From a virus: 64,000 bases of DNA. Numbering within the stretch: position 1 is the first letter of the stretch; each line of letters opens with the position of its first letter. The stretch is from the IMG/VR virus record IMGVR_UViG_3300045988_145683, positions 1 through 64,000 of that record. One strand, given 5' to 3'. Shown here piece by piece: positions 1,025 through 51,400 of the stretch. The translations under genes and the position numbers were made by a program. A model generated the notes under the pieces. It was not told where the DNA came from. It was given only the letters and a program-made list of their open reading frames with translations, and made no database searches.

Positions 1025-1765
1025 ATGAATGTTGTATATAAAATTACTAATTAGACTAATAAAAAATCTTATATAGGCTCAAGTACTCGTGTTGAAACTA
1101 GATGGAAATAGCACATTAATAATGCTTTTAATCTAAATAATTCAAATTATTTTTATCCTTTATAGTGTGCTATTAGAAAATATGGAGTAGAAAATTTTAC
1201 TTTTGAAATTTTAAGAAATGATTTTAATGATGTTAATTCGATGGAAACTTATGAGCATCAAATGATTTTAAAATATAATTCTTTATGTCCTAATGGATAT
1301 AATTAGACTGAAAATACTAAATCTAATATTATCGCTCTTGAGAATACTCAAAAGCATATAAAAAAAATTAGTAAAAAATGTGCTTTAGTAAATGAATAGA
1401 ATGAAATTATTTCTATTTATAGTTCTTATCATGAAGCTGCAAGAGCTCAAGGGTGGGATGGCGATAAAAGAGCTACGACAATAAAAAAAATATGTGATGG
1501 AGAAGCTCATAGTTGTAATAATTTAATTTTTCGATCATTGGATGAAAATAATAATGTTATAATTCCAAAAGCAAAAACTCGAAAAAGACGTACCAAAATA
1601 AAAGGAATTAATATAAATAACCCAAATGATATTGTTTACTATGATAGTATTAGCGAAGCTGCTCGAAAAGAAAAAGTAGATCGAAGTAGTTTAAGTAAAT
1701 GTCTCGCTGGATCAAGTAGATATAGCAAAGTTGGTGGACGAAAATGGGAAAGGATAGGTGATTAA
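1025..1765 (+). CDS. free-standing GIY-YIG homing endonuclease (I-TevI-like), 5 in-frame TAG codons
   Basis: ATG at 1025. Reading TAG as Gln gives MNVVYKITN-Q-TNKKSYIGSS...RWK-Q-H...AIRKYGVENFTFEIL. The C-terminal NUMOD/HTH-like tail DSISEAARK...SSLSKCLAG corresponds to track ORF 1538..1765. TAA stop. Confidence 0.75.
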
Positions 1766-2636: not shown

Positions 2637-4022
2637 ATGCCCGCTATTATTTCATTTATCCTTCCGGCAATTCCTGTAGTTCTTATCGTGCTACTGGTAA
2701 TTTTCATTTTCCTCAATGGTTATGTAAAGGCTCCGCCTGATATGGCTTACATTATCAGTGGTGTCCATAAGAAACCTCGAATTCTCGTTGGTAAAGCTGG
2801 CTTGAAGATTCCTTTCTTCGAACGTTTGGATAAGCTGGCTCTCGGCGCTATTCAAATTGATGTAAAGACTGGATCTGCGGTTCCTACTGCCGAATACATT
2901 AACGTTCGTGTTGACTCTACAGTTTCCGTTCGTGTGGGTAGAGATCCGGAAATGATTGCGCTCGCCGCTCAGAACTTCCTTAACGTAGGCCGTGATGAAA
3001 TTTCTCGTAAGATTAACGACCTTCTTGAAGGCAATATTCGTGAGATCGTCGGTCAGATGAAGTTGACTGATATGGTTAGCGATCGTAAGCTGTTTAGCGA
3101 GAAAGTTCAGGAGAACGCAGTTCCTGATCTGGCACGTTATGGTCTTGAGTTGATTACCTTTAACGTTCAGAACTTCTCTGATGATAATGATGTTATCACT
3201 AACCTCGGTATTGATAATGTCGCTCAGATTAGCAAGAACGCGGCGATCGCTAAGTCCAATGCGGAACGTGAGATTGAGGTCGCTCGTGCGGAAAATGCTA
3301 AGCAGTCTAATGACGCTAAGGTTAAGGCTGCTGAGGAAATCGCAATCCGCAATAACGATCTTGCTATCAAGCAGGCTCAGTTGAAGCAGGAAGCTGATAC
3401 TAAGAAAGCTCAGGCAGAGGCAGCCGCTGGCATTGAGTCTGAAAATCAGCGTAAGCTCAAGGATGTTGCTGCGACTAACGCGAATATCGCAAAGGCCGAG
3501 CGCGAAGCTGAACTGAAGCAGAAAGAAATCGAGCTTAAGGAATATGAACTGACTGCATTGGTTCGTAAGCAGGCTGATGCTGATAAGTATGCTGCGGAAA
3601 AGGCTGCCGAAGCAGACCTGATTCGTCGTCAGAAGGACGCGGAAGCTAAGGCTTATGAGATCGAGCAGGAAGCAAAAGCTATGCGTGCTCGCGCTGAAGC
3701 AGAAAAGTTCGCAGCCGAGCAGAAAGCTGCTGGTATTGCGGCCGTTGGTGAAGCTGAAGCTACAGCAATCGACAAGAAAGCAGAAGCACAGAAGAAGATG
3801 GGTGAAGCTTCTATCATTGAAATGTATTTCAATGCAATGCCTCAAATCGTGGCAAATGCGGCAGCCCCTCTTACCAATGTGGATAAGATCGTCCAGTATG
3901 GCGATGGAAACTCTGCTCGTCTTGTAAAGGATGTTATGGGTTCCGCAAACCAGGTCATTGAAGCAATGTCTGAAAATGGCATCGACATTAAAGAGATGCT
4001 TACAAAAGCATTGAACAAGTAA
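2637..4022 (+). CDS. SPFH/band-7 flotillin-like membrane protein
   Basis: N-terminal TM helix, an SPFH core (PPDMAYIISGVHKKPRILVGKAGLKIPFFERL), then a long Ala/Glu/Lys-rich coiled coil typical of flotillins. GC and codon usage are clearly higher than in neighbouring genes. Confidence 0.8.
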   Translation: MPAIISFILPAIPVVLIVLLVIFIFLNGYVKAPPDMAYIISGVHKKPRILVGKAGLKIPFFERLDKLALGAIQIDVKTGSAVPTAEYINVRVDSTVSVRVGRDPEMIALAAQNFLNVGRDEISRKINDLLEGNIREIVGQMKLTDMVSDRKLFSEKVQENAVPDLARYGLELITFNVQNFSDDNDVITNLGIDNVAQISKNAAIAKSNAEREIEVARAENAKQSNDAKVKAAEEIAIRNNDLAIKQAQLKQEADTKKAQAEAAAGIESENQRKLKDVAATNANIAKAEREAELKQKEIELKEYELTALVRKQADADKYAAEKAAEADLIRRQKDAEAKAYEIEQEAKAMRARAEAEKFAAEQKAAGIAAVGEAEATAIDKKAEAQKKMGEASIIEMYFNAMPQIVANAAAPLTNVDKIVQYGDGNSARLVKDVMGSANQVIEAMSENGIDIKEMLTKALNK

Positions 4023-4935: not shown

Positions 4936-6198
4936 ATGATGAGTACGAAGATGTATAAATTTTATGATACTTGTAGTTTGCTGATGGCGGTTGACACATT
5001 TCTCCAAGAGGAAGAATATACACCGGTTATATCTTCTATTACTTTAAAAGAATTAGAAAATATAAAAACATCATCAAACAAAGATGCTGATATTAAATAC
5101 TCAGCTCGTAAAGTATTACATAAATTAAATGAAAACCCTGATGATTATATTATCCAACTATTTAAATTAGATGGATTAAAAATAATTGAAGATTCTAACC
5201 TTCCAATTACTGATGATAGTAAAATTTTATCTACGGCTATTGAATTTAAATTAGCTCATCCAAACACTATATTCATTACTAATGATTTATCATTAAAAGC
5301 AATGGCGAATCTTTTCTTTGATAAAAATCATATTCAAAGTATAGATGAAGAATTAATTGATGAATATAAAGGATATGTGGAAATCACAATGTCCGACACG
5401 GAAATGGCTGATTTTTATTCTAATCAGTATGAAAATATTTATAGTTTACATATTAATGAATATTTAATTATAAGAGACAAAGATAATAATATTGTTGATA
5501 AAGTATGTTATACAGGCGATGGATATCGACCCATATCATTTGGTAATTTTGACTCTACTCAATTTGGAAAAGTAAAACCAATGAAAGATGACCCATATCA
5601 AGCCTTATTCGCGGATAGTCTTATTAACAATACTATTACTATGGTTCGTGGCCCCGCAGGGTCAGGTAAAACTTATTTAAGCTTAGCTTTTTTAATGAAT
5701 CAATTCGAGCGTGAACGTATTGATAAAATTATTGTATTTTGTAATACAATCGCGACTAAAAATTCAGCAAAATTAGGTTTTTATCCTGGCACTCGTGATG
5801 AAAAATTACTTGATAGCCAGATCGGCAATCTTTTAATTAGTAAATTTGGTGGTCGCTTAGCTGTTGAACGCATGATTGAAAATGAACAATTAGTTCTTTT
5901 ACCATTAAGTGATATCCGTGGTTATGATACTACTGGAATGAAAGCGGGTATTTATATTTCTGAAGCACAAAATATGGATATTTCGCTTATGAAATTGACT
6001 TTACAACGTATCGGTGAAGATGGTATTTGTATCATTGATGGCGATGATAAAACTCAAGTTGATGATATCGCTTTTGCTGGAGCCAATAATGGTATGCGTC
6101 GTGCTTCTAAAGTATTTAGAGGATCAGATGTATATGGTGAAATTGAATTAAAACAAATTCATCGTTCTAAAATTGCGGCATTAGCTGAACATATGTAA
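4936..6198 (+). CDS. phoH: PhoH-like ATPase with N-terminal PIN domain (PhoH2-type)
   Basis: N-terminal PIN-like acidic motifs (FYDTCSLL). Walker A GPAGSGKT and a PhoH core. No TAG codons. Confidence 0.75.
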   Translation: MMSTKMYKFYDTCSLLMAVDTFLQEEEYTPVISSITLKELENIKTSSNKDADIKYSARKVLHKLNENPDDYIIQLFKLDGLKIIEDSNLPITDDSKILSTAIEFKLAHPNTIFITNDLSLKAMANLFFDKNHIQSIDEELIDEYKGYVEITMSDTEMADFYSNQYENIYSLHINEYLIIRDKDNNIVDKVCYTGDGYRPISFGNFDSTQFGKVKPMKDDPYQALFADSLINNTITMVRGPAGSGKTYLSLAFLMNQFERERIDKIIVFCNTIATKNSAKLGFYPGTRDEKLLDSQIGNLLISKFGGRLAVERMIENEQLVLLPLSDIRGYDTTGMKAGIYISEAQNMDISLMKLTLQRIGEDGICIIDGDDKTQVDDIAFAGANNGMRRASKVFRGSDVYGEIELKQIHRSKIAALAEHM

Positions 6199-6260: not shown

Positions 6261-7562
6261 ATGACTAATATTGAAATAACTTGGAATTATTTATATAAAC
6301 AAATAAAAAACCCTTATGGAACGGCCGGGCTAATGGGAAACTTAAAAGCTGAATCAAATTTTAATCCAAAAAATCTTCAAAATAGTTTTGAAAAGACACT
6401 TGGATTAAATGACGAATAGTATACAAAACAAGTAGATAATGGTAAATATACTAATTTTATTTATGATAAAGCTGGATATGGTTTAGCTCAATGGACTTAT
6501 TGGAGTCTTAAAAAACAATTATATGATTTTACAAAAAAGAAAAATACTTCAATAGGAAACTTAAATACACAACTTGAATTTTTAATTTATCAACTTTCTA
6601 CATATTATCCTACCGTTTGGAATACTTTAATAAATTGTAAAGATATATAGACTGCTTCAAATATAGTTTTAACATAGTTTGAACGACCAAAAGATTAGAG
6701 TTTAAAAATCCAATAGTAGAGATTATATTATGGAGTTGAAATATATGATCAATTTATAGAAAAAGGTGAAAATATGAAAATTGTAGATAATTTAACAACA
6801 TCTAATTATCAAAAAGGTAATAATAGAAAAATAAAATATATTGTAATACATTATTTTGGTTCTTTAGGGACTGCAAAAAATATTAGTAATTATTTCAAAA
6901 ATCCTGTCGCTAAATCATCAGCTCATTATTGTGTTGATGAAAAAGATATTATTTATCGTAGTGTTAAAGATGAAGATATTGCTTGGCACTGTGGCACAAG
7001 AAAAGGATATAAACATCCTGAATGTAGAAATGCCAATTCTATTGGAATTGAAGTAAGACCTTGTAAAATAAATAAATCTAATATTGTAGCCAGTGATACT
7101 GATTGGTATTTTGATCCAAAAGCATTAGAAAATACGATACAATTAGTAAAACAATTAATGTAGAAATACAATATACCTGCGGACCACGTTATTCGCCACT
7201 ATGATGTAACTGGTAAATTATGCCCTCGTCCATTATGCGGAACTGACATGAATAGTTATTATAGAACAAGTGGCGATTACCAATGGTAGTTATTTAAACA
7301 AAAAATTGGTGATAATATAAATATTAATGAGGAGGATGAAGATATGACTTAGGATAAATTTAATGAGATGATGGAAGTTTATTTAAATCAACAAGCCGAA
7401 AAAAATGCAAGTTCTTGGTCTGATACGGAAAGAACTTGGGCTGAAAGTAAAGGATATATTAAAGGCGATAATTTAAATCGTAAAATGTATAAAAAATTTA
7501 TGACTCGTGAAGAAATGATTGTAGTTCTTTATAGAATTATGAAAGATAAAGGGTTGGTGTAA
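6261..7562 (+). CDS. modular peptidoglycan hydrolase / endolysin: tail-lysozyme-like domain + Amidase_2 + SLH-like C-terminal domain; 9 in-frame TAG codons
   Basis: Track ORFs 6774..7163 and 7368..7562 and the upstream segment from ATG 6261 are all in one frame. They are separated only by TAG codons (about 6415, 6648, 6676, 6700, 6718, 6721, 7162, 7279, 7348). Domain 1 has G(L/M)GNLKAES...GLAQW. Domain 2 is an amidase_2/PGRP-like fold (IVIHYFGS..., HYCVDE, GIEV). The C-terminus WAESKGYIKGD...MTREEMIVVLYR fits an SLH consensus. Confidence 0.75.
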
Positions 7563-13897: not shown

Positions 13898-15109
13898 ATG
13901 AGTTTCTCTAAAGAATTGCTTGATAAGTATGCTCCAGAAGCAGATTGTATCCAAGCGATGAAAATTTGGAAATTGCCCGATGGTAAAGAGAGTCTTTTCC
14001 CCGTTGTTTGTAATGGCGGTGAATATTTTGCTGAATTGAAAAAAGATGGATATTGGTATCAGTATGAAAAGACAGAACATTATGATTATTTATTTAGTCG
14101 TAATGTAAGTGCAAATACTGGTATTTTAACTGAAAAGTTAGCAAATGTCCCTCATATTCATGAAGCACTCAAAGATTTACCTTCCGGCACTATTTTAATA
14201 GGTGAAATTTATTATCCAGGTAAAACTTCTAAAGATGTGACTAAAATTATGGGATGTTTAGCACCTGAAGCGATTAAACGTCAGCAGTCCAGTGGATTAA
14301 TCCATTATTATTTACATGATGTTATTAAATATAATGGAATTAATATTCAAAATGAGGGTGCTTGGACACGTTATCAGGTATTAAAAGCCATTTGGGATAA
14401 ATTTAATTTAAGTCAATATTCTTATATGGAACTTGCAGATGCAGTTCTTGATAATATTCAAGAATTTACTGCGGCCGCTCTTACTGCGGGTGAAGAAGGC
14501 GCAGTTTTGAAGAAAAAAGATGCTCCATATATTCCAGATAAGCGACCAGCATGGTCTTCTATCAAAATTAAAAAAATGGACTATGTTGATTGTATTTGCA
14601 TTGGATTTGAAGATGCAACTAAATATTATGATGGTAAAGAAATTACGACCTGGCCTTATTGGGAAATAAAAACTCCAATGTTTTATGATTGTTTTGAAGA
14701 AGATCATTGTTTCGCAGGATGGTCAAAACCCCAATTAGTAAAAGGAAATTTCTATAAAAATTATTTGAAGAATCCTCCTGCTAATGGAAGTAATTTATTA
14801 GAAGATGATGAAAAATATTATCAGCCAATTACCAAAGGCTATTATTATGGATGGAAGACATCTATGAAGTTAGGCGCCTATGATAATAAAGGAAATCTTA
14901 TTGAAATCGGAACGGTATCCTCTGGATTAACCGATGAACTTAAAGAAGCTTTTGCTAAGGAACCTGAAAAATACCTTAACCGAGTAGTTTCTATACAATG
15001 TATGGAAATTAATAGCAAAGACCATACTTTAAGACATGGATTTTTTAAAGGATTCCGCGATGATAAGAACATTACCGACTGCACTTTGGCGGAATGTTTT
15101 GACAAATAA
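13898..15109 (+). CDS. ATP-dependent DNA ligase
   Basis: Adenylation motif AELKKDGYWYQ (KxDG), EGAVLKKKD, OB domain. No TAG codons. Confidence 0.85.
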   Translation: MSFSKELLDKYAPEADCIQAMKIWKLPDGKESLFPVVCNGGEYFAELKKDGYWYQYEKTEHYDYLFSRNVSANTGILTEKLANVPHIHEALKDLPSGTILIGEIYYPGKTSKDVTKIMGCLAPEAIKRQQSSGLIHYYLHDVIKYNGINIQNEGAWTRYQVLKAIWDKFNLSQYSYMELADAVLDNIQEFTAAALTAGEEGAVLKKKDAPYIPDKRPAWSSIKIKKMDYVDCICIGFEDATKYYDGKEITTWPYWEIKTPMFYDCFEEDHCFAGWSKPQLVKGNFYKNYLKNPPANGSNLLEDDEKYYQPITKGYYYGWKTSMKLGAYDNKGNLIEIGTVSSGLTDELKEAFAKEPEKYLNRVVSIQCMEINSKDHTLRHGFFKGFRDDKNITDCTLAECFDK

Positions 15110-15127
15110 AAAAATTTTTTGTAAAAT
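15099..15127 (+). promoter_or_regulatory. promoter-like TTGACA-17-TAAAAT embedded in a gene 3' end
   Basis: TTGACAAATAAAAAAATTTTTTG spans the ligase stop codon. A near-identical copy lies at 15351. Confidence 0.4.
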
Positions 15128-15160: not shown

Positions 15161-15361
15161 ATGAAAACAAAAGAACTCAAGAATCTCGCAAAAAAAATTG
15201 CTAATGCAGAATTAATCGTTCAGACAAGTGAAGACCCGCAAGCTGTTCGTAAAGCCCAGAATCAAATTATGGAACTTTCGAGCCACGTTCACAGTCTTGA
15301 TGATATTACAACCATTGATGAAATGGTTCAAGAAATTCTTGGAAAAATTCTTGACAAATAA
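15161..15361 (+). CDS. hypothetical small acidic protein
   Basis: Track ORF. Its 3' end repeats the TTGACAAATAAAAAATTTTTT motif. Confidence 0.4.
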   Translation: MKTKELKNLAKKIANAELIVQTSEDPQAVRKAQNQIMELSSHVHSLDDITTIDEMVQEILGKILDK

Positions 15362-15379
15362 AAAATTTTTTACTATAAT
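15351..15379 (+). promoter_or_regulatory. sigma70-like promoter TTGACA-17-TATAAT
   Basis: Exact hexamers. The -35 overlaps the stop codon of the 15161 gene. Confidence 0.5.
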
Positions 15380-15453: not shown

Positions 15454-15723
15454 ATGGCTATGAAGGAAAATTCTAAGAAGGTTCTTAATTATTTGAAGGA
15501 AGTTAACGGTCAGGAAGTTACTGCTGCTGATGTTGCTGAGGCTCTCGGTCTCGAGAAGCGTTCTGTTGATGGTATTTTTACCAGTGCTATTCAGCGCAAA
15601 GGTCTCGGTCTTCGCACTCCCGCTGAGGTTGAGCTTGAGGACGGCACTCATAAGCAGGTCAAGTTCCTCTCTCTCACTCCCGCTGGCATGAGCTTTGATC
15701 CCGACGCTCCTGACGCGGAGTAA
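15454..15723 (+). CDS. small hypothetical protein (possible winged-helix DNA binder), GC-rich codon usage
   Basis: Track ORF. Strong GGAG RBS. Uses G/C-ending codons, atypical for this genome. Confidence 0.45.
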   Translation: MAMKENSKKVLNYLKEVNGQEVTAADVAEALGLEKRSVDGIFTSAIQRKGLGLRTPAEVELEDGTHKQVKFLSLTPAGMSFDPDAPDAE

Positions 15724-15738
15724 TTAATATAGATTATT

Positions 15739-15775
15739 AAGGGGTAGATATTTAATATCTGCCCCTTCTTTTTTA
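15739..15775 (+). terminator. rho-independent terminator
   Basis: Hairpin AAGGGGTAGATA...ATCTGCCCCTT followed by T6. Confidence 0.6.
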
Positions 15776-15782
15776 AGTATTT

Positions 15783-16796
15783 ATGCTTACTTTAATAATT
15801 GCTATACTGGCGTTTATTATTGGTGGATTTTTAATATATTTTATTTTACGTCCACGACTAAATAATATTCAAAAGCTCAATGAAGAAATAGTAAAACAAA
15901 ATAAAGAGCTTGAATCTAAAAATTCAGATTTAGATGATTAGTATACAATATTATCAACGGCAGTAAAAAGTATTACTTCCAGAAAAGAAGAAGTAGAAAA
16001 TAATTTAAATATTCTTTAGTCCAAAAGAGACGAAGTTGAAAATAGTTTAAATTCTTTATAGAATCAGGCAAAGCAATCAGCGGACATTTTCTATCAGCAA
16101 TCAATGGAAAATGCTCGTGTTCGTCTTGAATATGATTTAAATAAACAAGAATTTAAATATACAAAAGCTAAAGAAGAATATGAAAATGAATATCAATCAA
16201 CTCTTGTTGATTGTTCTTTAGAATTATCTAATTTAATTAATTCTAAAAAAGAAGAATTAAATAAATTAGATGAAGAAATTCAATTACATAGTAGAGAAGT
16301 TGCGGCCGCAGTTGATGCTGCGAAACGTGCCGAAGAAATTAAAAATCAAGCTGATTTCTATAAATTATAGTTGTCTCAAATAGATATTGATGAAATCAGT
16401 CTTCTTCGTTCTATTGAACCAAGACTTCGTGATAAAGATATTTTAAATAAAGTAATTTGGAAAAGCTATTATGAAAAACCAACTACAGATTTGATTGGTC
16501 GAGTAATTGGCTCTGGAGTCCATACAGGGATTTATAAAATTACTAATTTAGAAAATCAAATGTGTTATGTGGGTCAAGCAGTCGATCTTTCTGCGCGTTG
16601 GAAACAGCACATTAAACGCGGAATTGGTGCGGAACCCGCCACGCGCAATAAACTTTATCCTGCTATGTTGGCTATTGGAGTAGAAAATTTTAGTTTTGAA
16701 GTAATAGAAGAATGTTCTCGTAAAGAGTTAGATGTGCGAGAAGATTACTGGCAAGACTATTTTAAAGCTAAGGAATTTGGGTATAGTATAAAATAA
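15783..16796 (+). CDS. membrane-anchored coiled-coil protein fused to a C-terminal GIY-YIG nuclease domain; 4 in-frame TAG codons
   Basis: ATG 15783 (MLTLIIAILAFIIGGFLIYFIL, a TM helix) is in frame with track ORFs 16104..16370 and 16371..16796. They are separated only by TAG codons (about 15951, 16017, 16047, 16368). The C-terminus has GIYKITNLENQMCYVGQAVDLSARWKQH...GVENFSFEVIEE. Confidence 0.6.
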
Positions 16797-17071
16797 TGTA
16801 TAGAATAATTGATAAACGTGGAACAGGAAAAACGAGTAGATTAATACTGTTAGCCAAAGAGAAAAATGCTATTATTGCTTGTTCTAATCCTGATGCTATG
16901 AGAATTAAGTCAGAAGGATATGGAATTATTGGAATTGATTTTATTTCATATTATGATTATATAAATGGGAATTATCCAAAAGGCAGTATGGTATTCATTG
17001 ATGAACTTGATTGTTTTGTTCGTTCTCTTGGGCATAATCTAAGCGGATATACTTTAAGTAATGAGGATTGA
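16796..17071 (+). CDS. small P-loop-containing hypothetical protein
   Basis: Track ORF. DKRGTGKTSRLIL. TGA stop. Confidence 0.35.
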   Translation: MYRIIDKRGTGKTSRLILLAKEKNAIIACSNPDAMRIKSEGYGIIGIDFISYYDYINGNYPKGSMVFIDELDCFVRSLGHNLSGYTLSNED

Positions 17072-24444: not shown

Positions 24445-26193
24445 ATGGACTATCAACTAAAAGCTCCTCGCATCCCGCAGTATTCAGCGGTCGAACAGGT
24501 GCTAACCAATAGAGGAATTAAATTACAAGATATTCCTCATTATCTTAATACCACTGATGACGACATTATCGAACCAGCAACTATTGATAGAATAGAAAAT
24601 GGTGCAAAAATGCTCGTCAAACATATTGCACAAAATGACAAAGTTCTTATATAGGTAGATAGTGATTGTGATGGCTATACTTCGGCGGCCGCACTCATGA
24701 ATTACTTATACTGTCTTTTTCCTGCGTTTGTGCAAAACAATATTTTTTATCGTGTCCATGCAGGAAAACAACACGGAATTATACCAGATAGTATTGATAA
24801 AGATATTAAATTAGTAATTGCTCCAGATTCTTCATCAAATGATTATTTAGAACACGAATATTTATATAAAAATGGTATTGACGTGTTGGTAATAGACCAC
24901 CATGAAGCTGATAAAATATCATAGTATGCTTGTATTATTAACAACCAATTATGTGATTATCCAACTAAATCTTTATCTGGTGTAGGAATGGTTTATAAGT
25001 TTTGTTGTTATATTGATGAACTTATGAATGTTCGGTATGCGGATCATATATTGGATTTAGTTGCTCTTGGAATGGTGGCCGACATGATGGATATGCGTGA
25101 TTTTGAAACAAAACATTTAATTAATAAAGGCTTACAACAAATCACCAATCCTTACTTCAGAGGCATAATCAATAGAGATTAGTTTCATTTTAATAATGAG
25201 ATTACGCCTATTGGAGTAGCTTTCTATATTGCTCCTTTAGTTAATGCAACTACTCGTGTTGGGACGCAAGAAGAAAAGCTCATGCTATTCGAGTCAATGC
25301 TTGATTTTAAGGGATACGAACTTGTCCCTTCAACAAAACGTGGATGTAAAGGTCAAGCAGAAACAAGAGTAGAACAAGCTTGTCGTAATTGTACTAATAT
25401 CAAGAATAGGCAAACTAAAATCAGAGACACTAGCTTGGAAAAAATTGAATAGATAATCGTAAATCAAAATCTTTTAAGTAATAAAATCTTAGGAATTAAG
25501 TTAGATGGATTTGCTGCTGACAAAAATTTGACTGGGTTAATGGCCAATCAATTAATGAGCAAATATCAACGTCCTGTTTTAATTCTTAATAAAACAATAG
25601 ATGAAGAAACTCAACAAATTTGTTGGGAAGGCTCCGGCAGAGGATACGACAAATCCACACTTAAAGACTTTAGAGAATTTTGTCAAAAATCAAATCTAAT
25701 TATGTATGCGGAAGGACATCCTAACGCTTTTGGATTTGGTATTATTGATGATAATTTTGATAAATTTATTGAATATGCGAATTCTGCTTTACAAGATTTT
25801 GATTTCACCCCAATTTATAGTGTTGATTTTATTTATCACACTAATGATTTAGTTGGAAAAGATATCATTGATATTGCTCAACTTAAACCACTTTGGGGCC
25901 AAGGGGTAGAAGAAGCATCTATTGCCGTTGAAGGAGTAAAAGTTGCATCAAATAACTTAACTTTAATGTCAAAAGATAAAAATCCTACCTTGAAGATAAC
26001 TATGCCAGATGGCATCAGTTTAATCAAGTTTAAGTCGTCCGAGGAGGAATACGAGAAATTGTATTCTGAATAGGGTTATGTGACAATTAATATCGTTGGT
26101 AAATGCGAACGAAATATATGGAATAATAATATTAGTCCTTAGATTATTATAGAAGATTACGAAATTGTAGATAGGGCTGCTTATTATTTTTAA
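24445..26193 (+). CDS. DHH-family phosphoesterase (RecJ-like ssDNA exonuclease), 6 in-frame TAG codons
   Basis: Track ORFs 24445, 24697, 24988 and 25528 are in one frame, separated only by TAG (24655, 24925, 25183, 25438). The apparent stop 26071 is TAG; read-through reaches TAA 26191. Motifs DSDCDGYTS, VIDHHEA (DHH), EGHPNAFGFGI (DHHA1). Confidence 0.7.
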
Positions 26194-35635: not shown

Positions 35636-36879
35636 TTGTATATTATTAAACGTGATGGAAGTATAACTCAATTTAATAAAAAGAAAATTATTAACGCAAT
35701 AAATAAAGCATTTATTGAAGTTGATGGTAAACTATATGAAGATGATACTGCGAAAGATATTGCGGAAGACATTGAAAGACAAATAAATCATTTCCCCGAT
35801 GGAAGTGTTGGAGTAGAAGATCTTCAAGATTGGATTGAAGATTATTTAATGCGTTCTGAGCGACGTGATGTTGCTCGTGCTTATATCAGATATAGATATA
35901 AAAAAGAAGTTGCTCGTAATAAAAAAGATGATTTTATTAAAGCAATTCGTGAAAAGCTCGATGGTAATAATGTAAAAAATCAAAATGCTAATGTTGATGA
36001 ACATTCATTCGGCGGTCGCACTGGTGAAGCAAGTAGTGTTGTTACCAAACAACTTGCGCTTGATTATTTACTTTCACCTATGGCTCGTAAGAATCATATT
36101 GATAATATTATTTATACTCACGATCTTGATTCTTATTATGTTGGTTCTCATAATTGTTTAAGTATTCCCTTTGATAATTTACTCGCCAATGGATTTAATA
36201 CTCGTCAAGCTGATGTTCGTCCTGCGGGCTCAATTAATACAGCATTTCAATTAATCGCTGTTATTTTCCAAATTCAAAGCCTTTGTCAATTTGGTGGAGT
36301 TAGCGCCACTCATTTAGATTGGACTATGGTTCCTTATGTAAGAAAATCTTTCTTTAAACATTTCAATGATGGTATTGAGTTTTTATATGAAGGATTAGAT
36401 ATGAACAAATATGATGGCTGCTATAGTAAAGAAACTTCTATTGAAGATGATTTTTATAAATCATTTCCAAAAGCATATAAATATGCTATGAAAATGACTG
36501 TCCGTGAAACTCATCAAGCTGCGGAAGGTCTTTATCATAATCTTAATACTTTACAATCTCGTAGTGGAAATCAATTACCATTTACAAGTATTAATTATGG
36601 TACTTGTACTAAACTAGAAGGTAGAATGGTAACTAAAGCATTATTAGATGTTTCTATTGAAGGTCTTGGTAAACTTCATAAAACTTCGATTTTCCCTTGC
36701 GGAATTTTCCAATGTATGAAAGGTGTTAATCGCAAACCTGGTGATCCTAATTATGATTTATATAGATTAGCATTAGAAAGCACCGCGAGACGCCTTTATC
36801 CTAATTACGCAAATGTTGATTGGTCTGGTAATGCAGGATATGATATTAATGATCCTCGCACTTATTTTTCTACAATGGG
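35636..36879 (+). CDS. nrdD: anaerobic ribonucleoside-triphosphate reductase NrdD, exon 1 (ATP-cone + core)
   Basis: GGAGG RBS then TTG 35636 (track start 35621). N-terminal ATP-cone (IIKRDGSITQFNKKKI). Exon 1 probably ends ...YFSTMG at about 36879. The exon continues into a TGA at 36911, consistent with an intron. Confidence 0.7.
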
Positions 36880-37730
36880 TAAGCGTAAACTCAGCCCATT
36901 TAAAATCTTTTGAACTGCGCCCGCAGGTGTCTCTATGAAGAGGCTAACGGTTAGGTCTTAATATAATTAGCTGTAATATTAAGATGAGACCGTGCTAAGA
37001 TTCATCATAATATTCATATAAAGGAGGTGCCCTTAATGTGGATATATAAAATAATAAATATTCAAAATAATAAAGTATATATTGGTTAGTCGATTAGACC
37101 AATTAATCAAAGATTCCAAAGACATATAAATGATGCTCTTAATAATATTCTCGATACTCATTTTGCTAGAGCAATAAGAAAATATGGTAAAAAAAATTTT
37201 ATTATAGAAGAAATTGATACAGCCAATACTCAAGAAGAATTAAATGAAAAAGAGCAATATTGGATTAAATATTATGATTCAGTAACAAATGGTTATAATG
37301 AAACAGATGCCATTTCTAAGTGTGGTGGAAATACTTACCAATCTAAAACTGAAAAAGAAATGGAAATTATTAAAGACAAAATTCGACAAACTAAAATAGG
37401 AAGTAAAAATCCTATGGCTAAAAAAATAAAAAGAATAAATATTCTTACTAATGAAGTAGATATTTTTGATACTATTATTAGTTGTGCTAAAGCTTGTGGA
37501 ATTTAGAATGGTAAAACTTCTATTACAGATAGATTAAATGGTAAAATTAAAAGTCCATTTAAAAATACTTGGAAATTTGAATATTATGATGAATAAAGTG
37601 TATCGACTATCCCTGATGAATGTAAGGGAGTAGACTTGGAGATAGGCACCAAGTCGAAGCGGAAGACAACTCTATCTTATAGATAGAATGATAATATAGT
37701 CAGTGCCGATGGTGACATCGGGTAAACATG
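36880..37730 (+). other. group I intron in nrdD with embedded homing endonuclease ORF
   Basis: The NrdD reading frame breaks between ...STMG and CRTANGWDINGF... Internal guide GCCCAT about 12 nt into the insert pairs with exon ATGGGT (U.G at the splice site). The insert ends in G. An RBS+ORF lies in a loop. Compare the T4 nrdD (sunY) intron. Confidence 0.55.
37036..37596 (+). CDS. intron-encoded GIY-YIG homing endonuclease, 2 in-frame TAG codons
   Basis: AAGGAGG RBS. MWIYKIINIQNNKVYIG-Q-SIRPINQRFQRH, with TAG at the invariant Gln (37087). Second TAG at 37504, inside a C-terminal HTH-like tail parallel to the 1025 enzyme. 3' boundary uncertain by about 1 codon. Confidence 0.65.
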
Positions 37731-38741
37731 TGTAGAACTGCAAATGGTTGGGATATTAATGGATTCGGTCAACTTAAAGATGGACGTGGAAATATTTGTC
37801 CTGTTACTATTATTCTTCCTACTCTTGCGATGATGGCCGTTACTCTAAATGAAAATGATAATTGGGATGACTATAAGTCATTATCCCAAGAAGAACGGAC
37901 TAAAATTGGTGTAGAACGATTTATGTCTTTACTCGATAGAAAAATCAATGAAGCACGTATTCAATTAATGGAACGTTTTGAATGGATTTGTTCTCAAGAC
38001 CCAGGCTCCGCGAGATTTATGTATGAAAATAATGTTATGGCAGGTTATGTTCCAGAAGAAGGAATTCGTTCCGCTCTTAAGCACGGAACTCTTGCTATTG
38101 GTCAGTTAGGTTTGGCTGAAACTCTTCAAATTCTTATTGGTAAAGATCATACCACTTCAGAAGGAATGGAATTAGCTAAACGAATTGAACAATTATTTAA
38201 AGATAGATGCGCCGAGTATAAAGAAAAATATAAACTAAATTTTGGAGTTTATTATACGCCCGCAGAAAATCTTTGCTATACTGCTATGACAAAGTTTAAA
38301 GAAAGATACGGCGAAATTCCTAATGTTAGTGATAAAGAGTTTTTTACCAATAGTATTCACGTTCCAGTATGGAAAGAAATGAGTCCATTTGAAAAAATTG
38401 AAATTGAATCTGAATTAACTGGTTATTCCTCCGCAGGATGTATTACCTATGTCGAACTTGATTCTACTGTAAAACATAATATTGATGCTCTTGAAACTAT
38501 TGTCAATTATGCGATGGATCACGATATTCCTTATTTCGCAGTAAACGTTCCTAATGATACTTGCCTTGAATGTGGTTATTGTGATGAATTTAATGATTCT
38601 TGTCCTGAGTGCGGAAGCCACAATATTCAGCAATTGCGTCGTGTGACTGGTTATCTTACAGGCAATTATAAAACTGCTTTTAATTGGGGTAAACAAAAAG
38701 AAGTTGAAGCAAGAGTAAAACATACAGGAGCATTAGAATGA
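37731..38741 (+). CDS. nrdD: NrdD exon 2 (glycyl-radical and zinc-ribbon C-terminal region)
   Basis: Track ORF 37728..38741. CLECGYCDEF...CPECGS zinc ribbon and an RRVTGYLTG glycyl-radical-like motif. TGA stop. Confidence 0.7.
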   Translation, partial: CRTANGWDINGFGQLKDGRGNICPVTIILPTLAMMAVTLNENDNWDDYKSLSQEERTKIGVERFMSLLDRKINEARIQLMERFEWICSQDPGSARFMYENNVMAGYVPEEGIRSALKHGTLAIGQLGLAETLQILIGKDHTTSEGMELAKRIEQLFKDRCAEYKEKYKLNFGVYYTPAENLCYTAMTKFKERYGEIPNVSDKEFFTNSIHVPVWKEMSPFEKIEIESELTGYSSAGCITYVELDSTVKHNIDALETIVNYAMDHDIPYFAVNVPNDTCLECGYCDEFNDSCPECGSHNIQQLRRVTGYLTGNYKTAFNWGKQKEVEARVKHTGALE

Positions 38742-40865: not shown

Positions 40866-41378
40866 TTGAATATCCTCTTTTTAGATTTATCTACTAAATC
40901 TACTGGTTATTGTGTATCTAATAATGAGGGAGAAATGTTAGATTATGGACTGTTAACCGCGATTTCCTCTAATAATTTAGATAGAATACAAAAAATACAA
41001 GATTAGATTATTGAATTAGTAAAAAAATATAATATAGAGAAGATAGTAGCGGAAGATGTTCATCCTGAAACTTATGGATATTCTGATACTTCACGTTTAT
41101 TAATGTGGCTTCAAGGCGCAGTAATGTTAGGCGCACATGGAGTTAATTCTTCATTTACTTCCAAAACATTAGAGCTGATGTAGGCAAGTGAATGGCGCAA
41201 AAAACTCGGAATTAAAACCGGCCGCAGTGTTAAACGTGAAACTCTTAAACAAGCCGATATTGATTTTGTATAGCAAAAATATAATATAAAAGCCAATGAT
41301 GATATATGTGATGCTATATGTTTATATACTGCATATTTCACGAAAGAAAGCCCCAATAATGATTTTAATTGGGAATAA
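40866..41378 (+). CDS. ruvC: RuvC-family Holliday-junction resolvase (phage type), 3 in-frame TAG codons
   Basis: AAGGAGGTA RBS then TTG 40866. NILFLDLSTKSTGYCV and a C-terminal DDICDAICLYTAY motif. TAGs at about 40998, 41181, 41271. Antisense track ORF 41111..41356 is discarded. Confidence 0.65.
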
Positions 41379-41455: not shown

Positions 41456-41884
41456 ATGTCTGCTTTTATTGCCTAGCATTTTATAGAAATATTTTTTGGT
41501 CTTATTTCTGCTGGCCTCTTAGCCTTTTGTAGATATATTTATACTCAAATGAAAATGTATCAAAAATTGGCAGAAGAAAAGAAAGATGAACAATTAGAAG
41601 AATTAATTGAAGAACATATAGCTCCAATTAAAGAAGATTTAAATAATTTAAGATCTTTCGTATTGGAAGAAAAGAAAAGTAGTGAGAGTTATATTGAAAT
41701 AATTCTTGCTTCTTATAGATTTAGATTAATTCAGTTATGTCAAAGTTTCTTAAAACAAGGATATATGACTTCAGGGCAGTATGAATAGTTAGTCGAATTT
41801 TTTAAAGTATATGCAGGTTTAGGTGGAAATGGATAGGCTAAAGAGTATTATGAAAGGACTTTAAAATTACCGCTTAAAGACTAA
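41456..41884 (+). CDS. membrane protein, hypothetical (3 in-frame TAG codons)
   Basis: GGAAGGAGGT RBS then ATG 41456. In frame with track ORF 41549..41788. N-terminal TM helix. TAA at 41882. Confidence 0.4.
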
Positions 41885-48487: not shown

Positions 48488-51400
48488 TCACTTTACAATA
48501 GGTTCTTCTTCAAAGTTTGCTCTATTAGATATCATTGCTTCATAAATTCTATGTAAAGTATTCTTAACACTTTCACCATAACTAGCAACATAATAATATC
48601 TAAAACGACCTGTATATCCATTAGCGACAGTAGGCATACCTGTTTGACGAGGGGTAAAAATATTACCAGAACTATCTACCGTAATCTATTTAATTGGATG
48701 TTTATTAGTGCCAATCTATACTTGAATAGCACCAGTATAACCCTTAAACTAATTACCAGACATATTTAAAATTGTCTAACCAGAGAACGCATTTACATCA
48801 AAGTTAAGAATACCATCTTTACATCCCTCTATAATTAAATTATAAGGAGAATAAGACCCCATCTTACTTTGATAGAATGCTTGAGCTCCAAAAGTCAAAC
48901 CTTCCGTAGAAGAAGAATAAGGAATTATATTATTACGACTTAAAGGACATTGATAAAATGCCTTAATGCCAATTTTCTTTAGACAATCACTAAATTGGAA
49001 ATATTCTAATCCACTATCTAAAATAAAGGCATAATCATCTATTACAGAAATTTTATTACTATCTTTTGGAGCAAAGAATATAGCAGTAATATTAGGATTT
49101 ACTTGAATACCAATTGCTGCTGATGGGTTAACTTGGCTATATTTAATTCTCGTAATTGGCTAACCATTATAAGTTGTAGGTAAAGTAATTTTGCCTTTTA
49201 AATTCTTAGCTAAGTCAGTCATTGCAAATGATAATTCTCCATCAGAATTTATAATATCATAATATTTATGAGTAGCATCATTAGTTAAAATATTATCATA
49301 AACACTAATTGGTTCTCCAACGGCATAAAACTCACGATCGGCATAAGCTAATTGTTTAGTTAAATCAATTTTAACTCCATCTTTATCCGCCCATCCAGTC
49401 TGTCTCCAAGTCCACTCTAATGGGTCTTCACCTTTTGGTAAATCAGTTACTTCTGCATTATTAAAATAATAAAATTCTTCTGGAACAGTAATTCTTTCAC
49501 CATAATTAAATACTTTTTTTACAGTTGAATCATTAATAACACGGTCACCATTGACAAAAGTGATTGTATAAGATTTGCGTTCAAATCTTGCTTTAAAAAC
49601 ATAATCTATTTTATTAGGTTGTAAAGACAAAGAATTCCAATTATTTTTTAAGACGACATCTTCTTCGTTTACATTTTTCCCAACAGTAATTACCAATTCT
49701 CCCGTATCGTCTTCCCAGCCTTTAAAATCATAAGTTGGCATTTTTTCTTGTAAACTACCAAAAGAAATATAAGTTTCACTAGAAAGAATAGTTGGATCAT
49801 CAAAAAACTTATCACTAGATGAAGACAATTTCTAAGTTTTTAAAACTTCCTAAACTATTACTCCATCGACGTCTTCTTTTTCTAAAATAAATTTAGCAGA
49901 ACATTCTTGTTTAACATTTTCTACAAAAATTATTAAATTAGGATATTTATTCTATAACTCATTTTGAATAACTGATTCATCAATTTGATTATTATTTTTT
50001 ATATATATAACACCAGATATTTCTGGTTTATTGGTATTAAGACCTCTATAATTATTATAAACATCAATTAACAAATTATAATCAGTTATTATATTATGTT
50101 CTTCATTATCTCCATTTATTGTATCTAAATAATAAATCTAATTATTTTTAATATCAGATTTTGTTATTTTACTAACCTAATCTTTTGAAATACTTGTTAA
50201 CTAAAAATGTCCGTTATCTCTATAATAAGATTTTTTTTCTGGATCAAGAGCTGTTTTAGTATCAGTTAAAAGTCTATAGGGGCTCCATTGAATATTGCTT
50301 AAATTAATAATACAATTAGATAAATCTAATTTACTATTTTCACTAGCTGAAACATATTTACGCAATAATTTATAACTATTATATCCTAAATTGCCACCTC
50401 GAATATCAAAAGTTTTTATCTCGGTTTTTTCTTGACCTTCAATAGCATCAGTAAGACCCTAAATATATAAACCACGATTTTCATCTAAAATTTCAAGTTT
50501 TCCAGTAGTTGAATTTTTTTCAGGATATACATAATTAGTTATTAATTTCGTTAATAAATTAGCTTCTATTAAACTTAAATAATTTGTTCGATTGGTTAAA
50601 TATAAAGTATTTAAAGCTACTCCAGGAGCAAAATTAACTCTTGGAATATTAGATTTAGTATTTCTAAAGTTTTCAAGCTTTTCGCTCTTAGTTAAATCTA
50701 ATGCTCCTTGGTCTTTTTTAAAGTTAATATTGCAAAGATTCATTTCTTTAAGTAAAGGCATTCCGCCTTTTGAGAAAGACCAATCGTTTACATCATTATT
50801 AAAATATTCATTACCACTTTCATCTTTCCCGTCATACCCTAATAACAAATCAGTTAAACGCTCCATTTTTCCTTCAGCAGCAAATTCTTGGAAATATAAT
50901 TTACTTAAATCACCGAGAGATTTCATTTGATCCATTCCATAAATATAATATAATTGTTCTTTATAATTACCGCTACTTATAATTCCTTTTTTAATATCAG
51001 GAGCTACATATTTAACTGGTTCTAAACCATTATATTTCTTTGAAGGAAAATTCTCTCCATCTGTACCAATAGTAACATAGGCATTGCGCGCGGGCTCCAT
51101 ACTAATCCAATATTCGCCATCAAACATATGATTTTTTTCTTCAAATTCAGCATTATTTTTCCAATATTGAGAATTTGTAATTAATCCATCCATATTCTAA
51201 GTATTAGTGCCTTCAATCCATTTATCAGATGTATTTTTAGGATTATTTGCAGAAATACGGCTTCTAATATAACTTCCTCCACCATTTCTGGCATAAGTAC
51301 CAACAGTTAACCAAGAGTCAATATAATTAAGACGATTGGCTAAAAATTGCGCACGATAAAGATTTCTATCTCCTTGTAAAGCATAAAAATATTTATCATC

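What the first reader, a model, noticed from the sequence alone, without database searches (positions are those of the whole stretch)
15783..16796. Unusual fusion: N-terminal transmembrane helix + long coiled coil + C-terminal GIY-YIG nuclease
With TAG decoded, three track fragments form one 337-codon ORF. It has a hydrophobic N-terminal helix, about 150 residues of heptad-like coiled coil (NKELESKNSDLDD..., EEVENNLNILQSKRDEVENSLNSLQ), and then a complete GIY-YIG catalytic core (GIYKITN...YVGQA...ARWKQH...NFSFEV). A membrane-tethered GIY-YIG nuclease is not a standard homing-enzyme architecture. It could be a host-DNA degradation or exclusion factor.
Basis: seen in the sequence. Interest (0 to 1): 0.55.

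Follow-up and report, generated by a model that had tools for sequence, protein, structure and literature searches.

The report
Membrane-tethered stalked GIY-YIG nuclease of phages
A gut phage that reads the TAG stop codon as glutamine encodes one protein made of a membrane anchor, a rigid stalk of about 24 nm and a DNA-cutting domain; it belongs to a large unannotated phage family that resembles, but is not related to, the bacterial SNIPE nuclease that cuts incoming phage DNA at the membrane.

Summary
Window 15783-16796 (+) is one 337-codon gene with four in-frame TAG codons that encode Gln.

- **One gene, not several:** Relatives keep the same reading frame with 0-16 TAGs at other positions. 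Several have no TAG and an intact ORF of 313-334 aa.
- **Anatomy:** An N-terminal membrane helix (predicted N-out, C-in) is followed by an unbroken helix of about 165 residues. Its length is conserved but its sequence is not. Then come a conserved two-helix adaptor and an I-TevI-type GIY-YIG catalytic domain with an intact catalytic set. There is no DNA-binding domain.
- **Not a homing endonuclease:** The gene was present at the same place in 80 of 80 loci chosen through the upstream gene alone.
- **Family size:** At least 480 clusters at 50% identity. NCBI holds only the 141-aa piece after the last TAG.
- **Throttled expression:** The gene follows a conserved terminator, has no Shine-Dalgarno motif, and is about 7-fold richer in TAG than its neighbours.
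- **Closest analogue:** SNIPE (PD-lambda-1). Membership fails because no DUF4041 domain is found.
- **Function (inferred):** It cuts DNA at the inner face of the membrane. The target is most likely incoming competitor DNA; host-DNA breakdown is the main rival.

The parts
15351..15379 (+). Perfect sigma-70-type promoter (TTGACA-17-TATAAT) driving the upstream 89-aa gene; context for how the nuclease gene is transcribed
   Evidence: 12 of 12 hexamer matches
15454..15723 (+). Upstream neighbour 'up89', a small winged-helix-like protein with a good Shine-Dalgarno motif; always directly upstream of the nuclease gene in this clade
15739..15774 (+). Intrinsic-terminator hairpin (13 pairs, 15739-15767) plus T-run, ending 8 nt before the start codon. 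Conserved in 11 of 12 lineages with different stem sequences
15783..16796 (+). The whole gene: 337 codons plus TAA; one protein under genetic code 15 (TAG = Gln)
15783..15848 (+). Residues 1-22: N-terminal transmembrane anchor, followed by R23-P-R25. Predicted N-out, C-in
15855..16349 (+). Residues 25-189: acidic coiled-coil-type stalk of about 24 nm. Length is conserved, sequence is not
15939..15941 (+). In-frame TAG, codon 53 (Gln in close relatives)
16017..16019 (+). In-frame TAG, codon 79 (aligned with a CAA Gln codon in the 57%-identical homologue in L002-L005)
16059..16061 (+). In-frame TAG, codon 93 (Gln in most relatives)
16368..16370 (+). In-frame TAG, codon 196 (YKL-Q-L; Gln in relatives).
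16350..16517 (+). Residues 190-245: family-specific adaptor (consensus DFYKLxLSxxDxxEIxxLRxIxPxLRxxEPLNKVIWKxYYEKPTTDLIGRV). Two helices that pack on the nuclease core
16518..16793 (+). Residues 246-337: I-TevI-type GIY-YIG catalytic domain. Invariant Y251, Y262, G264, R272, H276 and E320; the protein ends 17 residues after the catalytic Glu
16796..17071 (+). Downstream 91-aa P-loop-like ORF whose ATG overlaps the nuclease stop codon (TAATG). Frequent neighbour but missing in some close relatives, so not an obligate partner

Best explanation
One 337-aa protein is made once TAG is read as glutamine.

Anatomy:
- A 22-residue N-terminal helix anchors it in the cytoplasmic membrane, with the rest of the protein inside the cell.
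- An unbroken helix of about 165 residues, probably a parallel coiled-coil dimer, forms a stalk of about 24 nm.
- A conserved two-helix adaptor carries a minimal I-TevI-type GIY-YIG catalytic domain with no DNA-recognition domain.

The protein is a domesticated, non-mobile DNase and a core gene of a clade of roughly 155-200 kb TAG-recoded phages of gut Firmicutes.

Its activity is limited in space and in amount. In space, the tether confines it to a shell under the membrane. In amount and timing, the gene lies behind a conserved terminator, lacks a Shine-Dalgarno motif and carries many TAG codons, which need suppression to be translated.

The inferred role is to cut DNA that appears at the inner face of the membrane while sparing the phage's own replicating DNA. 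The most likely target is DNA of a superinfecting competitor phage as it enters. That would be the logic shown experimentally for the bacterial defence protein SNIPE, reached here independently and encoded by a phage.

Shown: gene integrity, TAG = Gln, architecture, intact catalytic residues, fixed locus, the expression-limiting sequence features.
Inferred: topology, dimerisation, DNase activity, late timing, biological target.
For: - One gene, TAG = Gln. Homologues carry 0-16 TAGs at differing positions, and TAG-free ORFs of 313-334 aa are intact.
- Family size and architecture: 480 clusters at E<=1e-30; 129 of 150 representatives have an N-terminal membrane helix.
- Topology: 94% of 133 members have no Lys/Arg before the helix, and 99% have at least 2 Lys/Arg within 15 residues after it. 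This is the orientation proven for SNIPE by PhoA/LacZ fusions (PMC13190303).
- Stalk: helix 2-189 at pLDDT 76-90; no Pro or Gly, heptad pattern; length 185 +/- 11 residues at only 20% pairwise identity.
- Not mobile: present in 80 of 80 loci chosen via the upstream gene. It has no NUMOD-type domain, unlike the homing endonuclease at 1025-1765 in the same window.
- Throttled expression: terminator conserved with differing stems; no Shine-Dalgarno motif, against 45 of 62 window genes that have one; TAG 123 per 5697 codons against 207 per 69579 in neighbours.
- SNIPE precedent: a membrane anchor prevents self-cleavage, and the anchor-less form is toxic.
Against: - No experiment exists on any family member.
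- The DUF4041 domain, which in SNIPE binds DNA and tape-measure proteins, is absent in 62 of 62 members. How this protein would find injection sites or bind DNA is unknown.
- Exclusion genes are usually early and accessory. This gene is core, sits in the replication/nucleotide module, and its TAG load suggests late translation.
- In three distant lineages it directly follows ThyX. That echoes T4 denA after nrdB and favours a nucleotide-salvage role.
- Dimerisation could not be modelled.
- When TAG suppression switches on in this clade is not known, and the window holds no suppressor tRNA.
Confidence: 0.4

Rival explanations
1. Host-chromosome degradation and nucleotide salvage, like T4 endonuclease II (DenA). 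The tethered nuclease nicks host DNA near the membrane and feeds dNMPs to the phage's ThyX and NrdD pathway.
For: - In L021, L022 and L025 the family member directly follows ThyX, abutting or overlapping its stop codon.
- In phAss-1 the gene lies within 5 kb of NrdD, NrdG and ThyX.
- The window phage encodes NrdD.
- The gene is core, as expected for a metabolic function.
Against: - A membrane tether and a length-conserved stalk are not needed for bulk host-DNA breakdown, and no known host-degrading phage nuclease has them.
- Nothing was found that would protect the phage's own DNA, such as base modification. Only a subset of the window's genes was annotated, so this is weak evidence.
- The terminator, the missing Shine-Dalgarno motif and the TAG load imply low and probably late expression. 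Salvage is needed from the onset of replication.
- Nucleotide and replication modules are adjacent in most large phages, so the gene order is weak evidence.
Confidence: 0.25
2. A late DNA-processing nuclease. It nicks or resolves phage replication or recombination intermediates at membrane-attached replication or packaging sites. The layout resembles phi29 p16.7, which has a membrane helix, a coiled coil and a DNA-binding domain (recalled from memory).
For: - The gene sits between the ligase and the YorF-like, Sak4-like and DnaB genes.
- The other TAG-bearing + strand genes include RecJ-like and RuvC-like DNA-processing enzymes.
- It is a core gene at a fixed locus.
Against: - The I-TevI-type minimal domain is not known to be structure-specific.
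- A RuvC-like resolvase is already encoded at 40935-41378.
- No evidence of membrane-attached replication exists for this clade.
Confidence: 0.15
3. An ordinary mobile GIY-YIG homing endonuclease that happens to carry an odd N-terminal extension.
For: - Best family hits are homing-endonuclease models: TIGR01453 at 67 bits, phrog_314, PADLOC HEase.
- The nuclease domain is 31-40% identical to the two homing endonucleases in the same window.
Against: - Only positions 2-87 of the 215-position TIGR01453 model match.
- There is no NUMOD, IENR or HTH domain, and the protein ends 17 residues after the catalytic Glu.
- Domain order is reversed relative to homing endonucleases.
- The gene is present at the same locus in 80 of 80 loci chosen independently of it.
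- The homing endonucleases nearby are sporadic and split host genes.
Confidence: 0.03
4. TAG terminates translation, so the region encodes separate small proteins or is a decaying pseudogene.
For: - The standard-code ORF list shows three separate ORFs.
- NCBI annotates only the 141-aa tail.
- No suppressor tRNA lies in the window.
Against: - The only in-frame stops are TAG (chance about 5e-10).
- TAG positions differ between lineages while the frame and all domains are kept.
- TAG-free homologues are intact.
- The tail piece has no ATG until inside the catalytic domain.
- The late genes of the window are full of in-frame TAG.
- The related phAss-1 carries tRNA-Sup(CTA) genes.
Confidence: 0.02

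Closest known systems
SNIPE (PD-lambda-1), the E. coli membrane-bound anti-phage nuclease (Saxton et al., Nature 2026, PMC13190303)
   Same: - Three-part layout: an N-terminal single-pass membrane anchor, an elongated middle part, and a C-terminal GIY-YIG nuclease.
- Cytoplasmic orientation of the nuclease (proven for SNIPE, predicted here).
- The nuclease is the best-conserved part and the N-terminal part is highly variable.
- The logic that tethering keeps a non-specific nuclease away from resident DNA.
   Different: - No DUF4041 domain in 62 of 62 members, and no PD-Lambda-1 model among the PADLOC hits listed.
- The middle part is a plain acidic coiled coil plus a new 55-residue adaptor.
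- The nuclease is of the I-TevI/Seg type.
- It is encoded by a lytic-type phage as a core gene in the replication module, not in a bacterial defence island.
- The gene is recoded with TAG.
I-TevI and other GIY-YIG homing endonucleases (TIGR01453, PF01541)
   Different: No linker or DNA-binding domain. The catalytic domain is C-terminal instead of N-terminal. The protein is membrane-anchored and not mobile (80 of 80 loci).
T4 endonuclease II (DenA)
   Different: EndoII is a small soluble protein with no membrane helix or coiled coil. Sequence similarity is negligible (16% identity).
Uzume (UzuA), a single-gene defence system
   Same: A C-terminal GIY-YIG domain. 46 of 62 family members hit the UzuA model, best E 1.6e-10, always on profile positions of about 184-275 of 278.
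   Different: The first roughly 180 positions of the UzuA profile are never matched. UzuA is bacterial, and its mechanism is undescribed in the papers found.
RmuC (membrane helix + coiled coil + PD-(D/E)XK nuclease) and phi29 p16.7 (membrane helix + coiled coil + DNA-binding domain); both recalled from memory
   Same: The same general plan: an N-terminal anchor, a coiled coil, and a C-terminal module that acts on DNA.
   Different: Different C-terminal folds and no sequence relationship. The weak PADLOC 'RTasRmuC' hits (11 of 62 members) sit alongside coiled-coil-type models (JetC, LmuB, ZorA) and were not examined further.

Membership tests
GIY-YIG nuclease superfamily (PF01541) | Sequence match above Pfam's gathering score | tested here: met
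   36.8 bits against a cut-off of 22.6 for residues 249-329. 62 of 62 family members match.
GIY-YIG nuclease superfamily (PF01541) | Catalytic set: Tyr of GIY, Tyr of YIG, Arg, His, Glu (I-TevI Y6, Y17, R27, H31, E75) and the structural Asn90 | tested here: met
   Y251, Y262, R272, H276 and E320 are invariant in 62 and 117 sequences. The Asn90 position is Ser335 in the window's subfamily and Asn in other members, a minor departure.
GIY-YIG nuclease superfamily (PF01541) | GIY-YIG fold | tested here: met
GIY-YIG homing endonucleases (I-TevI type, TIGR01453) | N-terminal catalytic domain joined to a C-terminal DNA-binding domain (NUMOD, IENR, HTH or zinc finger) | tested here: not met
   TIGR01453 matches only model positions 2-87 of 215. 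The catalytic domain is at the C-terminus and the protein ends 17 residues after E320. No NUMOD hit, unlike the window's homing endonuclease at 1025-1765.
GIY-YIG homing endonucleases (I-TevI type, TIGR01453) | Mobility: sporadic presence, insertion into or beside conserved genes | tested here: not met
   Present immediately after up89 in 80 of 80 IMG/VR loci picked through up89 alone. Gene order is conserved across lineages.
SNIPE / PD-lambda-1 | Transmembrane segment near the N-terminus with the remainder cytoplasmic | tested here: inconclusive
   The helix is present in 129 of 150 representatives. Orientation is predicted only, by the positive-inside rule (94% and 99% of 133 members). No experimental topology.
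SNIPE / PD-lambda-1 | Central DUF4041 domain (binds DNA and tape-measure protein) | tested here: not met
   DUF4041 is not among the families reported for the window protein at E<=1, nor among the top 25 families for the 62 members at E<=0.1.
SNIPE / PD-lambda-1 | C-terminal GIY-YIG nuclease domain | tested here: met
   However, no PD-Lambda-1 model is among the PADLOC hits listed, so the domains are not close relatives.
SNIPE / PD-lambda-1 | Cleaves phage DNA during injection; removing the anchor makes it toxic to the cell | not testable with these tools
   Needs the wet-lab assays used in PMC13190303.
Uzume (UzuA) | Full-length match to the UzuA profile | tested here: not met
   Only profile positions 184-275 of 278 (the GIY-YIG part) match: E 2.4e-5 for the window protein, best 1.6e-10 in the family.
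T4 EndoII (DenA)-type host-DNA nuclease | Sequence or structural kinship beyond the shared superfamily fold | tested here: not met

The most novel reading that the evidence does not exclude
A phage-encoded counterpart of SNIPE that arose independently. A homing-endonuclease catalytic domain was domesticated onto a membrane anchor and a stalk of fixed length, so that it destroys DNA entering an already infected cell. Its toxicity would be controlled by the phage's own genetic-code switch (TAG-gated translation) together with a terminator. This would be the first nuclease-based superinfection-exclusion device in a phage, and the first case where stop-codon recoding gates a self-dangerous enzyme.
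Probability: 0.3. Interest if true: 0.8.

Novelty: new variant of a known kind. Interest (0 to 1): 0.6.

Why it matters
- **Hidden by annotation.** A family of at least 480 clusters at 50% identity, core to a widespread clade of large gut phages, is invisible in public annotation. Standard-code gene calling cuts it into pieces, and NCBI holds only a 141-aa 'GIY-YIG nuclease family protein'.
- **Convergent design.** Its layout matches a mechanism published in 2026, SNIPE, in which self and non-self DNA are told apart by where the nuclease sits rather than by sequence. Here the layout was built from different parts and sits on the phage side. This suggests that spatial confinement of nucleases is a more general strategy, possibly used in phage-phage competition.
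- **A test case for recoding.** The gene is a clean natural test of the idea that TAG recoding times the expression of dangerous late functions. It is a TAG-rich gene embedded in a TAG-poor early module, consistently across lineages.
- **Possible tool.** The compact, sequence-independent I-TevI-type domain with its adaptor could also interest enzyme engineers.

Tried and rejected
- **DNA search for a known phage.** Megablast of 6 kb around the gene against 50,697 phage records found nothing. tblastn found only phAss-1 with a match extending beyond the catalytic domain. In phAss-1 the gene is annotated as two separate CDS, although the same 326-codon frame with 8 TAGs is there.
- **First structure model.** The full-length AlphaFold2 run used a 13-sequence alignment and gave a poor C-terminal domain (pLDDT below 50). 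I replaced it with a 141-residue model built on 117 sequences.
- **Unavailable library.** The afdb50 fold library was not available.
- **Spurious PDB hits.** The sequence search against PDB put designed PPR proteins first. These are summed weak repeat matches and I disregarded them.
- **Obligate partner idea.** I considered whether the overlapping 91-aa P-loop-like ORF is a required partner. I rejected this because it is absent from the 95%-identical relative L006 and from L009, L016 and L018.
- **ThyX idea.** I considered whether the downstream 220-aa gene is a ThyX. It has no Pfam Thy1 hit.
- **Signal peptide.** Rejected from the sequence: the hydrophobic run is about 22 residues long and has no positively charged start.
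- **Bacterial or prophage homologues.** The GTDB scan returned only MAG records or metagenome-derived assemblies, on contigs from 2 to 184 kb, about half of them 154-184 kb. These look like phage contigs binned with bacteria, so no host was established.
- **Literature.** Searches for Uzume's architecture and for membrane-anchored GIY-YIG proteins in phages found nothing beyond SNIPE.
- **Not done.** A direct profile-profile comparison with SNIPE was not possible because no SNIPE sequence was obtainable with the tools.
Full report
**1. The observation**

Window 15783-16796 (+) starts with ATG and ends with TAA. It has 337 sense codons and four in-frame TAGs, at 15939, 16017, 16059 and 16368. 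Under the standard code there are five, of which three are long enough to be listed as ORFs. No TAA or TGA occurs in the frame. With this base composition (30.6% G+C) the chance of that is about 5e-10.

The window as a whole uses TAG as a sense codon. Allowing TAG raises the sequence covered by ORFs of at least 100 codons from 56 to 73 kb. The minus-strand genes at 42-64 kb carry many in-frame TAGs, for example 23 in a 2581-codon ORF.

**2. TAG is glutamine and the gene is one gene**

Full-length homologues of 322-337 aa at 57-96% identity are abundant in metagenomes. In the alignment the window's TAG codons fall on Gln in relatives. The DNA of a 57%-identical homologue (L002-L005) has seven TAGs at other positions. 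One of them aligns with the window's nearly invariant Gln259 inside the nuclease domain. That homologue also has a CAA Gln codon where the window has TAG at codon 79.

Across 21 GTDB-derived loci and 80 IMG/VR loci the gene carries 0-16 TAGs at shifting positions, always in one frame. L018, L020, L057, L059, L062, L067, L081, L085, L086 and L092 have no TAG and an intact ORF of 313-334 codons.

The distantly related phage phAss-1 has the same 326-codon frame with eight TAGs. That paper established TAG = Gln for the phage and found suppressor tRNAs (PMC10607447). GenBank nevertheless annotates two separate CDS there.

**3. Anatomy**

- *Membrane anchor.* Residues 1-22 (MLTLIIAILAFIIGGFLIYFIL) have a Kyte-Doolittle 19-residue mean up to 2.98 and are followed by R-P-R.
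- *Family-wide anchor.* In a search of 1.84 billion cluster representatives, 480 clusters matched at E<=1e-30. Most of the best 150 are 300-360 aa and many align over nearly their whole length. Of those 150, 129 have an N-terminal hydrophobic helix, and most of the rest look N-terminally truncated.
- *Topology.* Of 133 members, 94% have no Lys or Arg before the helix, and 99% have at least two within 15 residues after it (mean 4.0). By the positive-inside rule (established knowledge) the bulk of the protein is cytoplasmic.
- *Stalk.* Residues 25-196 contain no Pro or Gly, are rich in Glu, Leu, Asn and Lys, and keep one heptad register over residues 36-98. AlphaFold2 gives a single helix over residues 2-189 at pLDDT 76-90. 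Across 62 diverse members this region is only 20% identical pairwise and has a net charge of about -8. The number of residues before the conserved Tyr193 is 185 +/- 11. That is a spacer of conserved length, about 24 nm if straight (my calculation at about 0.15 nm per residue).
- *Adaptor and nuclease.* Residues 190-245 (48% pairwise identity) and 246-337 (57%) are the conserved part. Modelled with 117 sequences they give pLDDT 96.4 and pTM 0.90. Two helices pack on a GIY-YIG core.
- *Catalytic residues.* Invariant Y251, Y262, G264, R272, H276 and E320 sit at the positions of I-TevI Y6, Y17, R27, H31 and E75. The offset comes; the residue roles are from my knowledge of I-TevI. The Asn90 position is Ser in this subfamily and Asn in others.
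- *What is missing.* The protein ends 17 residues after the catalytic Glu, so there is no DNA-recognition domain.
- *The adaptor is family-specific.* Only two unnamed viral proteins in BFVD cover the whole adaptor-plus-core module (query-normalised TM-score 0.94-0.95), and nothing in PDB does.

**4. It is not a homing endonuclease**

The best profile hits are homing-endonuclease models, but only to their catalytic part. TIGR01453 matches positions 2-87 of 215.

The same window holds two free-standing GIY-YIG endonucleases. One, at 1025-1765, has GIY-YIG plus NUMOD. The other, at 37036-37596, lies between the two halves of NrdD. Both have the catalytic domain at the N-terminus. Their catalytic domains are 31-40% identical to the target's. 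The target therefore looks like a domesticated copy of such a domain.

To test mobility without ascertainment bias, I fetched 80 IMG/VR loci through the upstream 89-aa gene alone. All 80 carry the target downstream of that gene, usually within about 50-65 nt. The order ligase, 66-aa gene, 89-aa gene, target, (91-aa gene), (220-aa gene), MarR-like gene, YorF-like gene, Sak4-like gene recurs across lineages.

**5. Expression signals**

A 13-pair GC-rich hairpin plus T-run (15739-15774) ends 8 nt before the start codon. The same arrangement is found in 11 of 12 lineages with different stem sequences. That pattern argues for selection on the structure.

The upstream gene has a perfect TTGACA-17-TATAAT promoter and a good Shine-Dalgarno motif. 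The target has no such motif, whereas 45 of 62 window genes do. In phAss-1 the gene has its own promoter-like site and an AAAGGAGG motif.

In 16 of 17 lineages the target has 0.85-4.6 TAGs per 100 codons, against 0.12-0.77 in its + strand neighbours. Summed, that is 123 per 5697 codons against 207 per 69579. TAG makes up 33% of Gln-decoded codons (TAG, CAA, CAG) in the target and 9.5% in the neighbours (sums are my arithmetic).

The other TAG-bearing genes in the + strand block are:
- the endolysin (9 TAGs);
- a RecJ-like gene (6);
- a RuvC-like gene (3);
- a small membrane protein (3);
- the two homing endonucleases.

The inference is that the gene is made in small amounts, and only when TAG suppression is active. 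The literature proposes that this happens late in infection (summarised in PMC10607447). The timing is not shown for this clade, and the window has no tRNA gene.

**6. Who carries it**

The GTDB scan returned only MAG records or metagenome-derived assemblies assigned to Clostridia, Bacilli, Mollicutes and others. Contigs ran from 2 to 184 kb, and about half were 154-184 kb. IMG/VR contigs reach about 160-200 kb. These look like phage genomes binned with bacteria.

Sigma-70 consensus promoters and strong Shine-Dalgarno motifs fit a Firmicutes-type host. The host is not established.

Among 50,697 deposited phage genomes only phAss-1 has a match extending beyond the catalytic domain. NCBI and UniRef hold only the 141-aa piece after the last TAG, named 'GIY-YIG nuclease family protein'.

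**7. How it most likely works**

Shown:
- a single protein with an anchor, a stalk of conserved length, an adaptor and a catalytically intact minimal GIY-YIG domain;
- a core gene at a fixed locus;
- expression-limiting sequence features.

Inferred:
- a cytoplasmic orientation;
- a parallel dimer, which would pair two single-site nucleases so that both strands can be cut;
- low sequence specificity;
- low and late synthesis.

The only experimentally studied protein with this layout and orientation is SNIPE (PD-lambda-1). SNIPE has a membrane anchor, DUF4041, a helix and a C-terminal GIY-YIG domain. It sits in the inner membrane and cuts lambda DNA during injection. It is not toxic unless the anchor is removed, in which case it cleaves the chromosome (PMC13190303).

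By analogy, I propose that the phage protein is confined to a shell under the membrane. There it cuts DNA that enters an infected cell and is kept away from the phage's own replicating DNA. I give this 0.4.

The main rival (0.25) is host-DNA breakdown for nucleotide supply. In L021, L022 and L025 the gene directly follows ThyX. T4's GIY-YIG-fold EndoII gene likewise follows nrdB. Neither the tether nor the throttled expression is explained by that role.

A late DNA-processing role at the membrane gets 0.15. The homing-endonuclease and TAG-as-stop readings are effectively refuted.

**8. Comparison with known families**

Membership in the GIY-YIG superfamily is met on sequence, catalytic residues and fold.

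Membership in the homing-endonuclease class is not met: there is no DNA-binding domain and the gene is not mobile.

Membership in SNIPE is not met. DUF4041 is not among the Pfam families reported for the window protein at E<=1 or among the top 25 for the 62 members, and no PD-Lambda-1 model is among the PADLOC hits listed. The resemblance is one of design, reached from different parts.

UzuA (Uzume) shares only the C-terminal GIY-YIG domain (46 of 62 members, best E 1.6e-10).

Weak hits of the N-terminal part to DivIC/FtsB-like, ZapG-like, ZorA, JetC and LmuB models lie below the curated thresholds where the library has one (Pfam). I attribute them to the membrane-helix-plus-coiled-coil composition.

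**9. Verdict**

It is a large, unannotated family of phage core genes encoding a membrane-tethered, stalked GIY-YIG nuclease. Standard-code annotation hides it.

It is a new variant of a kind that became known only in 2026. Its biological target is unresolved, but simple experiments would settle it. Interest 0.6.

Noticed in passing
window 35849-36913, 37036-37596, 37728-38741 (+): The anaerobic ribonucleotide reductase NrdD is split into an N-terminal part (Pfam NRDD positions 2-265) and a C-terminal part (264-562 plus the glycyl-radical domain). A free-standing GIY-YIG endonuclease gene with 2 TAGs lies between them. This looks like a homing-endonuclease or intron-type insertion; whether the halves are spliced or work as two chains was not examined.
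   Followed up: partly
window 1025-1765 (+): A second homing endonuclease, with an N-terminal GIY-YIG domain and a C-terminal NUMOD domain and 5 in-frame TAGs. It is a useful internal contrast to the tethered nuclease.
   Followed up: partly
window 6261-7562 (+): An endolysin (Phage_lysozyme2 plus Amidase_2) sits among TAG-free early-type genes on the + strand and carries 9 in-frame TAGs. The RecJ-like gene (24445-26193, 6 TAGs), the RuvC-like gene (40935-41378, 3) and a small membrane protein (41456-41884, 3) show the same pattern. TAG load marks individual genes here, not just the late block.
   Followed up: partly
window 16796-17071 (+): A 91-aa ORF with Walker-A-like (GTGKTS) and Walker-B-like (VFIDELD) motifs. 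Its ATG overlaps the nuclease stop codon (TAATG). It matches only PHROGs of unknown function. It is present in many relatives but missing from the 95%-identical L006.
   Followed up: partly
window 15351-15379 and 15099-15127 (+): A perfect (12 of 12) and a near-perfect (11 of 12) sigma-70 consensus promoter lie in front of two tiny genes (89 and 66 aa) just upstream of the nuclease gene. This suggests strong host-RNA-polymerase transcription of small winged-helix-like proteins.
   Followed up: no
L021 6676-7491, L022 6776-7612, L025 6724-7434: In three distant lineages the tethered-nuclease gene directly follows a ThyX (Pfam Thy1) gene, abutting or overlapping its stop codon. T4 denA follows nrdB in the same way (L110, record 137517-139719).
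   Followed up: yes
protein P0271 (cluster of P0001): NCBI and UniRef hold only the 141-aa fragment after the last TAG (MCI7444382.1, DAU68657.1, WP_444210283.1). One entry is attributed to Dialister succinatiphilus. That is either a host hint or contamination, and it was not checked.
   Followed up: no
L001 6749-7010 (phAss-1 OQ749652, record 62445-62703): In phAss-1 the family member lies about 300 nt upstream of a tRNA-Leu and two tRNA(CTA) suppressor genes. ARAGORN labels the suppressors 'Pyl'; the GenBank record labels them Sup-CTA.
   Followed up: no
L052 and L075 (IMG/VR UViG_3300032167_000002, 402 kb): One 402-kb viral contig carries two diverged copies of the up89-plus-nuclease locus (91% and 87% identity to the window's up89). 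This could be a chimeric assembly of two related phages.
   Followed up: no
window 2637-4022, 4936-6198 (+); 48488-56233 (-): An SPFH/Band7-domain protein, a PIN+PhoH protein, and a 2581-codon ORF with 23 in-frame TAGs on the minus strand. None was examined further.
   Followed up: no
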